DNA of 64,000 nucleotides from Octopus sinensis (Eukaryota). Positions 13,635 to 14,449 of the stretch are shown in pieces. The notes under the pieces were generated by a model that ran no database searches, was not told the DNA's origin, and saw nothing but the letters and a program-made list of their open reading frames with translations. Location: positions 3,534,001-3,598,000 of the forward strand of contig NC_043023.1 in assembly GCF_006345805.1 (NCBI RefSeq), given 5' to 3'. Numbering within the stretch: position 1 is the first letter of the stretch; each line of letters begins with the position of its first letter. The position numbers were made by a program, and so were the translations under genes.

Positions 13635-14223
13635 CATACACACACACAAACACATGCACACACACACACACATATATATATATATACATGATGATGATAT
13701 ACAGTATTTTTCAATCAAAATCTATCACAAGGCACTGGTCAGCCAGGGGCTATAGTCAAAGGCACTTGCCCCAGGGTGGCATGGTTTTACACCTTGAGCA
13801 AGTATCTTCTACAAATCATGTGATTGCAAAACATGGAAGACAGTGTAAAATGCAAATAAAAAGACAACAAAAAAGAAATAAAAACAAAATAAGTTTATAT
13901 TTTTTTTTGCTTTGTTACCACAAATATACATATATAAGGCTGTGTATATATGATGGAGTATATAGACCAATGGAGGGAAGGGTGAGGATAGTAAGAAATA
14001 GATTGAGAGATGGAAAGAGAAAGAGTAAGACAACCATAAATAAACATACATAGGACTGTATGCATACCAATATATATATATATATATGTATGTATATATA
14101 TATATATATGTATAAATTAGAAAAAAAAATGTAATTTTTCTAAATGGTATAATTTAATTATTCATTATTGAGATGAAAGGTGGGTTTTTTTCTAATTATA
14201 TATATTATATTTTTTATAGAAGG

Positions 14224-14274
14224 AGCTTCTACAGGACTAGAACTGTTTCATTCAAAAGAAATCATCAGGAAGCT
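14224..14274 (-). ncRNA. Type I hammerhead ribozyme fold (mirror copy, left arm of palindrome)
   Basis: Exact reverse complement of 14271-14321. Confidence 0.7.
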
Positions 14275-14321
14275 TCCTGATGATTTCTTTTGAATGAAAC
14301 AGTTCTAGTCCTGTAGAAGCT
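14271..14321 (+). ncRNA. Type I hammerhead ribozyme fold (right arm of 122-bp palindrome)
   Basis: Stem I AGCTTC/GAAGCT, core CTGATGA (14277-14283), stem II TTC-TTTT-GAA with a non-canonical U.U closing pair, GAAA (14296-14299), stem III ACAG/CTGT, cleavage triplet GUA (after 14315). Confidence 0.7.
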
Positions 14322-14404
14322 CCTTCTATAAAATAAATTAATTTACTCTGCTATGTATTGAGTACCTTATTTACTGTGGTTAACCCCGACTCAACCCGGA
14401 CCTA

Positions 14405-14449
<45 letters not shown>

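What the first reader, a model, noticed from the sequence alone, without database searches (positions are those of the whole stretch)
14212..14410. Perfect 122-bp palindrome with back-to-back hammerheads, one per strand
Seen: zero mismatches and no loop. Each half folds as a type I hammerhead (stem I AGCTTC/GAAGCT, CTGATGA, GAAA, stem III ACAG/CTGT, GUA site), and the two stem I 5' strands overlap at the AAGCTT centre. Inference: a transcript from either direction contains a ribozyme preceded by its own antisense copy, so it could act as a hairpin-versus-ribozyme switch. It lies about 6.5 kb past the PTDSS2 stop, within reach of read-through transcription. Perfect symmetry implies a very recent insertion or arm homogenisation. 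Caveat: the stem II closing pair is U.U rather than G-C.
Basis: partly seen in the sequence, partly recalled or inferred. Interest (0 to 1): 0.75.

Follow-up and report, generated by a model that had tools for sequence, protein, structure and literature searches.

The report
Mirror-image Penelope retroelement stub with hammerheads
This perfect 122-base mirror sequence is one copy of an abundant repeat, likely the end of a Penelope-type jumping gene pasted in back to back in a single insertion; the mirror is predicted to block its self-cutting RNA motif rather than switch it, so it is an ordinary footprint of a known kind.

Summary
The palindrome is real (14212-14333, 61-bp arms, no loop), and each arm carries a type I hammerhead motif. 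It is part of a 195-bp insertion (14212-14406): a mirror arm, a forward arm and a 73-bp tail on one side only. A 15-17-bp target duplication flanks it inside a TA run of an older repeat, whose uninterrupted paralog lies at 7443-7285. Public contigs show a family of hundreds of copies or more in three organisms. Its arms join at many different points, 11 of 14 at microhomology. The window's exact centre recurs at an estimated 10-15 loci in one run and 80-100 in another. This is the published architecture of Penelope-like insertions; the parent ORF was not seen. Likely mechanism: both target strands primed reverse transcription at two RNA sites, and the cDNAs joined through self-complementary AGCT. 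A switch is not supported: the predicted share of the ribozyme fold falls from about 0.03 to 1e-53 in the palindrome. Thirteen other short inverted repeats lie in this window, and the scan has reported this architecture on other DNA, including this genome. Cleavage, transcription and this locus's own flank junctions are untested or unconfirmed.

The parts
14212..14406 (.). Whole insertion: mirror arm + forward arm + one-sided tail (about 195 bp)
14212..14272 (-). Inverted, tail-less arm; 3' end points left
   Evidence: family copies also stop near the equivalent point and run into (TA)n (loose ends at 14338 and 14206)
14273..14333 (+). Forward arm
   Evidence: high-copy exact contigs
14271..14274 (.). 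Self-complementary AGCT overlap at the junction; natural upstream sequence differs from the mirror from 14270 (or 14271) leftwards
   Evidence: loose ends at 14271 in X4 and 14273 in X2
14271..14321 (+). Type I hammerhead motif; predicted cut 14315|14316 (GUA); weak stem II over U.U; near-palindromic loop III
   Evidence: family variants at free positions
14224..14274 (-). Mirror copy of the hammerhead motif; predicted cut 14230|14229
14312..14330 (+). 8-bp family-wide hairpin over the cut site and the 3' strand of stem I, incompatible with the ribozyme fold
   Evidence: z -5.7, window chosen after seeing it; exact contig 14312-14344 at depth 14,500
14334..14406 (+). 73-bp tail on the forward arm only; family copies end at ACCTACA followed by (TA)n
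   Evidence: contigs span arm and tail at depth 14,000-16,000; loose ends at 14396-14400
14197..14213 (+). Left target-site duplication (15 bp, 17 with the 2 nt shared with the arm end)
14436..14452 (+). Right target-site duplication
   Evidence: the 17-mer occurs 3 times in the window: both sides of the insertion and in the empty paralog
14407..14435 (.). TA run, longer than at the left copy; likely expanded by slippage
14117..14196 (+). Host repeat, part left of the insertion
14453..14520 (+). Host repeat, part right of the insertion
7285..7443 (-). Paralog of the host repeat without the insertion (empty site, one copy of the target 17-mer); itself part of an inverted repeat 7358-7555
20866..21399 (-). 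Context only: last coding exon of a phosphatidylserine synthase family gene, stop 6533 nt from the palindrome
   Evidence: (PF03034; this exon alone E 5e-4, below cut-off; two other exons above it)

Best explanation
This is a 195-bp insertion of an abundant hammerhead-bearing repeat into a TA run, with a target duplication, a mirror arm and a one-sided tail, and it is likely the ribozyme-bearing end (pLTR) of a Penelope-like retroelement whose two arms were likely copied in one event from the two cut target strands and joined at a self-complementary AGCT. Steps. (1, inferred) A PLE endonuclease nicks both strands 15-17 nt apart in the TA-rich target. (2, inferred) One nick primes reverse transcription at the distal RNA site (14406) and gives the forward arm with tail; the other primes at the proximal site (about 14333) and gives the tail-less mirror arm. 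(3, shown) Both arms cross the predicted cut site, so the template was uncut. (4, inferred) Both cDNAs end at or just beyond the 5' strand of stem I. Two ends reading ...AGCT-3' anneal to each other, which reproduces the zero-loop centre exactly and explains why it recurs. (5, predicted) In any transcript across the locus the 59-bp hairpin wins and the ribozyme is silenced; the copy is a passive stub. My odds: PLE-type insertion footprint about 0.9; double priming as the route about 0.65; no regulatory switch about 0.97.
For: Target duplication and empty paralog. High-copy family in runs of three organisms: arm and tail contigs at depth 14,000-25,000 against 32-55 for single-copy-like contigs in X3. 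Two 3' ends, about 14333-14338 and 14406, each followed by (TA)n. Fourteen distinct listed junctions at different points; microhomology of 2 nt or more in 9 of 14 by the tool's column and 11 of 14 by my recount, against 0.20 per random pair (P 3e-4 for 9 of 14). The exact centre occurs in X3 at depth 1,104 and in X4 (another organism) at depth 8,000, about 10-15 and 77-103 loci if each locus counts twice. Other near-centre palindromes are bridged with 31 or more letters on each side in X4, X10 and X16 (table 8). Natural non-mirror upstream sequence exists (X4, 17 contigs; X2, a 3,198-nt contig). All 4 family variants inside the 51-nt ribozyme fall on free positions (N7, loop II twice, loop III; P 0.003-0.005). 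The architecture is as published for EN+ PLEs (PMC3846280, PMC8557442). A purified PLE protein cuts and extends both strands, starts at two RNA sites that define the tail, and uses uncut RNA (PMC11167929).
Against: No RT or GIY-YIG ORF was seen; the 3,198-nt contig could not be read and may be host flank after a short truncated copy. The tail is 73 bp, not the published 30-40. The family could be a non-coding retrozyme moved in trans. The junction lists are the best-supported rows only (15 of 46 shown, 9 of them in this family; all 10 shown). Some junctions could be later deletions in palindromes. The centre contigs carry only 13-25 letters on their shorter side, below the tool's 31-letter bridging rule (expected for a perfect palindrome in a 31-mer graph, which I recall rather than tested). 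Shared alleles on both arms are weak evidence (about 0.09 if unlinked, more if linked). PMC3846280 explains such junction palindromes by self-priming instead.
Confidence: 0.65

Rival explanations
1. Same PLE-type insertion, but the mirror arm arose by fold-back self-priming of a single cDNA (or antisense template), as proposed for Adineta Penelope.
For: Junction palindromes are read this way in PMC3846280 (passages). Several family junctions leave a short unpaired spacer with 2-3 nt of microhomology, for example 14239>14292 and 14250>14289, which fits a fold-back. It explains identical arms directly.
Against: A zero-loop centre cannot form by intramolecular pairing of a 4-nt palindrome (inference from loop geometry). 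Fold-back gives no reason for mirror arms to stop at a second fixed site next to TA. Both target strands are extended in vitro (PMC11167929).
Confidence: 0.17
2. The palindrome plus tail is itself a small non-autonomous unit that was copied as a whole; other junctions are later central deletions.
For: One centre dominates: depth 8,000 in X4 against at most 1,135 for any other listed junction, and 1,104 in X3 against at most 92. Microhomology is also expected of deletions.
Against: Copies with natural upstream sequence and no mirror, and copies that start directly after (TA)n at 14280, 14314, 14323-24 and 14352, exist. A 59-bp hairpin is a poor template. Several junctions have the mirror arm longer than the forward arm.
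Confidence: 0.12
3. One reading: a functional hairpin-versus-ribozyme switch acting on read-through transcripts of the neighbouring gene.
For: Intact core on both strands; the gene points towards the locus, 6.5 kb away.
Against: Predicted ribozyme share 1e-53 in the full palindrome, and the antisense arm is always made first. Nine AATAAA sites lie in between. Thirteen other short inverted repeats lie in the same window. The same junction occurs at many loci.
Confidence: 0.02
4. Fold-back artefact of sequencing or assembly.
For: Perfect symmetry. The left flank junction (14180-14206) and right end (14405-14420) had no exact cover in 4 of 4 runs (a hole proves nothing). A missing G near 14399 relative to an X2 copy could be a homopolymer error.
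Against: Target duplication, empty paralog, one-sided tail, and the same junction words in short-read contigs of two organisms at high depth.
Confidence: 0.02

Closest known systems
Insertion units of endonuclease-positive Penelope-like elements with inverted pLTR, optional tail and TSD (Pen2a_Av and others, PMC3846280, passages; overview in PMC8557442, passages incl. Fig. 2 legend)
   Same: Head-to-head inverted 5'-truncated copy, palindrome at the junction, tail on one side only, target duplication, (TA)n target, hammerhead in the repeated end.
   Different: Reduced to 195 bp with no ORF between the arms; tail 73 bp rather than 30-40; TSD 15-17 bp rather than 8-10; zero-loop centre that recurs at many loci; parent ORF not seen.
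PAc (Poseidon of Anolis) in vitro system (PMC11167929, parts 1-2 of 4 read)
   Same: Two RT start sites define the tail; AT-rich target; both strands cut and extended; uncut RNA is the template.
   Different: In PAc the ORF starts inside the ribozyme. Here the ATGs at 14280, 14294 and 14355 are closed by stops within 5 codons (read from the sequence). The passages read do not describe joining of two cDNAs into a palindrome.
Hammerheads of metazoan PLEs, canonical and minimal type I (PMC4209133, parts 1-2 of 4 read)
   Same: Type I topology, 6-bp helix I, near-palindromic loop III able to dimerise (-12.8 kcal/mol); pairs on opposite strands 100-700 bp apart already noted in Schistosoma.
   Different: Helix II is short and lacks G10.1-C11.1 and the extra nucleotide; helix III is 4 bp with an 8-nt loop, longer than the usual 1-2 bp.
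Metazoan non-LTR retrozymes (PMC7229834, passages; bioRxiv 10.64898/2026.07.22.740005, part 1 of 5)
   Same: Non-coding type I hammerhead repeat tied to PLEs; axolotl HHR_Amex2 has the same U.U at the base of helix II and cleaves.
   Different: No tandem units at this locus; arms inverted; unit length and circular RNA unknown.

Membership tests
EN+ Penelope-like element (insertion footprint) | Inverted 5'-truncated copy adjacent at the 5' end, 3' ends pointing outwards | tested here: met
EN+ Penelope-like element (insertion footprint) | Tail on one end only, from two alternative 3' ends | tested here: met
   73 bp (published 30-40); ends near 14333-38 and 14406
EN+ Penelope-like element (insertion footprint) | Target-site duplication, AT-rich or (TA)n target | tested here: met
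   15-17 bp with empty paralog
EN+ Penelope-like element (insertion footprint) | Type I hammerhead motif in the repeated end | tested here: met
   variants at free positions
EN+ Penelope-like element (insertion footprint) | Variable 5' truncation across many dispersed copies | tested here: met
   joints and loose ends
EN+ Penelope-like element (insertion footprint) | Parent ORF with telomerase-like RT and GIY-YIG endonuclease between direct pLTRs | not testable with these tools
   No genome held; no second copy in the window; the 3,198-nt X2 contig shows only 30 letters beyond the match
Type I hammerhead ribozyme | Core C3-A9, G12-A14, A15.1-U16.1, H17 with helices I and III | tested here: met
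Type I hammerhead ribozyme | Helix II closed by G10.1-C11.1 | tested here: not met
   U.U, family-wide; a known, tolerated variant in axolotl, so not treated as excluding
Type I hammerhead ribozyme | Match to an Rfam hammerhead model | tested here: not met
Type I hammerhead ribozyme | Mg2+-dependent self-cleavage after H17 | not testable with these tools
   needs bench assay; contigs cannot show RNA ends
Non-LTR retrozyme | Tandem non-coding units, each with a hammerhead | tested here: inconclusive
   None at this locus; the X2 contig was listed with one piece only, which hints at no second copy within 3.2 kb, but table 8 was cut
Non-LTR retrozyme | Circular monomer RNA | not testable with these tools
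   only contigs available
MITE / hairpin DNA transposon | Symmetric terminal inverted repeats define both ends, short fixed TSD, no polarity | tested here: not met
   one-sided high-copy tail, 15-17-bp TSD, 5'-truncated copies, variable centres
Ribozyme switch (riboregulator) | Two folds of comparable stability, one of them active | tested here: not met
   -100.9 versus -24.9 kcal/mol; predicted active share 1e-53

The most novel reading that the evidence does not exclude
The recurring zero-loop centre is the direct signature of how Penelope-like elements finish integration. Two cDNAs, primed on opposite target strands at two fixed RNA sites, run to the 5' end of a short pLTR RNA at or just upstream of helix I and are sealed by annealing through a self-complementary 4-mer. 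A family-wide 8-bp hairpin over the cut site (14312-14330) is the real off-switch: it keeps the template uncut and places the second RT start 3 nt from its foot.
Probability: 0.3. Interest if true: 0.5.

Novelty: new member of a known kind. Interest (0 to 1): 0.22.

Why it matters
As a locus it matters little: it is one of many retroelement stubs and likely inert. If transcribed it would form a 59-bp double-stranded hairpin, a possible substrate for editing or small-RNA enzymes (general knowledge, untested). As a family it is a compact test case for a question that PMC8557442 calls open, namely how PLEs build their inverted arms and tails. Tens of independent loci with one exact centre, two 3' ends and target duplications could separate double priming from fold-back and from amplification as a unit. 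It also warns annotators that back-to-back hammerheads in such genomes are integration by-products, not regulatory switches.

Tried and rejected
Rfam: no hit at gathering level in the window; the E-value scan returned 51 matches, mostly miRNA hairpin models fitting the palindrome, none a hammerhead. Whole-genome search was impossible, so copy numbers come from per-contig depth ratios and are rough; depth values of exactly 25,000 look capped. No other copy of this family lies in the window. No RNA holder is on record among 23 listed runs; X2 and X9 are only guessed to be RNA and are contigs, so expression, strand and cut ends could not be read. No exact cover of 14180-14197 or 14405-14420 in 4 of 4 runs, and of 14198-14206 only in X4: neither support nor refutation for this locus or its polymorphism. 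The end of the 3,198-nt X2 contig 6 nt short of the cut site was rejected as a cleavage signal, because another X2 contig spans the site. A structured tail end was not supported (z -0.4 and -0.2). An ORF start in the ribozyme, as in PAc, was not found. A splice-acceptor reading of AG|C at 14272|14273 (the D. virilis intron ends at helix I) was considered and left untested; it holds only for one allele. The first MAFFT alignment of filled and empty sites misplaced the left flank and was set aside for BLAST. MITE and miRNA readings were rejected (see membership test). Look-ups of earlier findings by sequence and by nearby place gave nothing; by relatives, two unrelated primate minisatellites. 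Two short family motifs were absent from the one supplement file held for PMC8557442. The supplement of PMC13282606 was listed but not read, and its repeat library may already hold this family. PMC5785218 (small PLE hammerheads that cleave as dimers) is not held and was seen only as a citation. Paper searches: by listing, none concerns this family or double priming of PLE palindromes; one search gave 2 papers that by abstract are on other topics. The library lacks most subscription papers.

Full report
Observation. The palindrome is exact: 14212-14333, 61 of 61 pairs, no loop, centre 14272|14273. It is the only non-simple perfect palindrome of that class in the window. Each arm carries a type I hammerhead motif: helix I 14271-76/14316-21, CUGAUGA, a 3-bp helix II over U.U, GAAA, a 4-bp helix III, and a GUA site at 14315|14316. 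A descriptor finds only these two mirror hits in 64 kb, against 0.007 in simulated sequence. Against this, no Rfam hammerhead model matches, and the half is no more stable than its shuffles. The neighbouring gene is a phosphatidylserine synthase family member on the minus strand, with its stop 6533 nt away. The host is an AT-rich animal genome. I recall its repeats as octopus-like and earlier scan notes say the same, but I did not test the organism.

The real unit is larger than the palindrome. The 17-mer at 14197-14213 recurs at 14436-14452, behind a lengthened TA run, and only once more in the window, at 7371 on the minus strand. There the two flanks of the insertion are contiguous: the left flank matches 7443-7367 at 86% and the right flank 7371-7285 at 97%. 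So a unit of about 195 bp (14212-14406) sits in the internal TA run of an older repeat, with a 15-17-bp target duplication, and the window holds a paralogous empty site.

It is a high-copy family. I laid the region on contigs of 6 of the 23 listed runs. In one search (X3, X4, X10, X16; three organisms; 85% likeness) summed depth over 14210-14395 was 1e5-2e6, against 6-77 in the least repeated flank bins. The tool warns that this sum is no copy number. In one search (X3, X2, X9, X4; 100%) single contigs from arm and tail had depth 14,000-25,000 in X3, against 32-55 for single-copy-like contigs, which implies hundreds of identical copies at least. Contigs run from arm into tail, so 14334-14406 belongs to the element. 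Copies end at ACCTACA followed by (TA)n, and others end near 14333-14338 followed by (TA)n: two 3' ends 68-73 nt apart. Copies that begin directly after (TA)n at 14280, 14314, 14323-24 and 14352 show plain 5' truncation. Seventeen X4 contigs and a 3,198-nt X2 contig continue upstream of helix I with similar non-mirror sequence, so the mirror is not the natural 5' sequence. Only 14271-14274 (AGCT; GC alone for the X2 allele) can belong to both arms.

The mirror is a family habit with a preferred centre. Searches list 14 distinct junctions between a mirror arm and a forward arm. These are best-supported rows: 9 family rows among the 15 of 46 shown, and all 10 rows, 5 of them repeats. Arm asymmetry runs from +26 to -79 nt. 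Microhomology of 2 nt or more occurs in 9 of 14 (tool) or 11 of 14 (recount on the window sequence), against 0.20 per random pair. The window's own centre is present exactly in X3 (14259-14299, depth 1,104) and in X4 (14254-14285, depth 8,000). If each palindromic locus counts twice, that is about 10-15 and 77-103 loci. These contigs do not meet the tool's 31-letter bridging rule. Slightly different palindromes in X4, X10 and X16 do meet it. This locus's own flank junctions were not covered at 100% in any of 4 runs, so the locus itself rests on the assembly plus its target duplication.

The ribozyme looks selected in the family but disabled here. Of 6 family variants listed within the element, 4 lie inside the 51-nt ribozyme, and all 4 are at free positions (N7, two in loop II, one in loop III; P 0.003-0.005). 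The U.U is not among the variants, so it is a family trait; axolotl HHR_Amex2 has it and cleaves weakly alone and better as a dimer (PMC7229834, passages). Helix III can self-dimerise (-12.8 kcal/mol), as expected of PLE hammerheads (PMC4209133, parts 1-2 of 4). The predicted share of the active fold is 0.03-0.04 for the half, 3e-5 with about 10 nt of mirror leader and 1e-53 for the palindrome. The antisense arm is transcribed first from either side, so the palindrome is a lock, not a switch. Separately, an 8-bp hairpin at 14312-14330 covers the cut site and lowers the share to 0.004 in the forward arm alone (the z-score of -5.7 is post hoc). It is present in high-copy contigs and ends 3 nt before the short 3' end.

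Mechanism. I commit to double priming. Shown: target duplication, two 3' ends, arms that span the cut site, variable junctions with microhomology, a recurrent centre. Inferred: nicks on both strands each prime a cDNA, at the distal and proximal RNA sites; both stop at or shortly beyond helix I; and two ends reading AGCT anneal, which rebuilds the observed centre letter for letter. A purified PLE protein cuts and extends both strands, starts at two sites that define the tail, and prefers uncut RNA (PMC11167929, parts 1-2 of 4). Fold-back self-priming (PMC3846280, passages) and amplification of the palindrome as a unit remain open. The idea that the junction marks the start of the RNA comes from earlier scan notes and is not tested here.

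Comparison and novelty. Inverted truncated copy, junction palindrome, one-sided tail, target duplication and (TA)n preference are the published anatomy of EN+ PLE insertions (PMC3846280; PMC8557442, passages). It works like such an insertion on five tested features. Membership is incomplete because the RT-GIY-YIG parent was not seen, and a retrozyme moved by PLE enzymes (bioRxiv 10.64898/2026.07.22.740005, part 1 of 5) is not excluded. Recently active Penelope families are reported in Octopus vulgaris (PMC13282606, passages; supplement not read). Thirteen other inverted repeats of 123-432 bp lie in this window, and two pairs share a one-sided tail before (TA)n. Earlier scan notes describe the same architecture in this and other genomes; they are leads, not support. 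Verdict: real, a new member of a known kind, interest 0.22.

Noticed in passing
window 14564-14593 (+): A second, decayed minimal hammerhead core (CUGAUGA ... GAAACGUC with palindromic 15.2-16.2) after a TA run; helix I and helix II are broken and depth is low (about 30-370 at 85% likeness). Likely an old stub of another PLE family.
   Followed up: partly
window 5446-5613, 7026-7172, 7358-7555, 11572-11773, 15406-15719, 16232-16503, 18294-18462, 22068-22316, 37897-38058, 45079-45510, 50895-51280, 53814-54198, 56632-56754: Thirteen more short inverted repeats (71-96% arm identity). 22068-22316 and 37897-38058 share one 55-nt one-sided tail, 5446-5613 and 50895-51280 another of about 65 nt, each followed by (TA)n. 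None has an intact canonical hammerhead core.
   Followed up: partly
window 14100-14520, 7270-7555, 20067-20165: The host repeat has the same layout (inverted arm, forward arm, internal TA run, one-sided extension); a piece of the extension alone lies at 20067-20165. The insertion is nested in a stub of apparently similar kind.
   Followed up: partly
window 14312-14330: Family-wide hairpin that hides the cut site; a possible built-in off state of the parent RNA.
   Followed up: partly
run X2, record 2: A 3,198-nt contig (run guessed to be RNA) begins inside the ribozyme and runs upstream in natural sequence; a candidate for the parent element.
   Followed up: no
window 8627-9343 and 10189-10629: Tandem arrays with open frames on both strands (unit about 39 nt); probably a minisatellite.
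   Followed up: no
window 38656-39012 (-): Short frame that resembles, from memory, the C-terminus of a CR1/L2-type LINE protein; no Pfam match.
   Followed up: partly
window 54765-54864: Assembly gap of 100 N.
   Followed up: no
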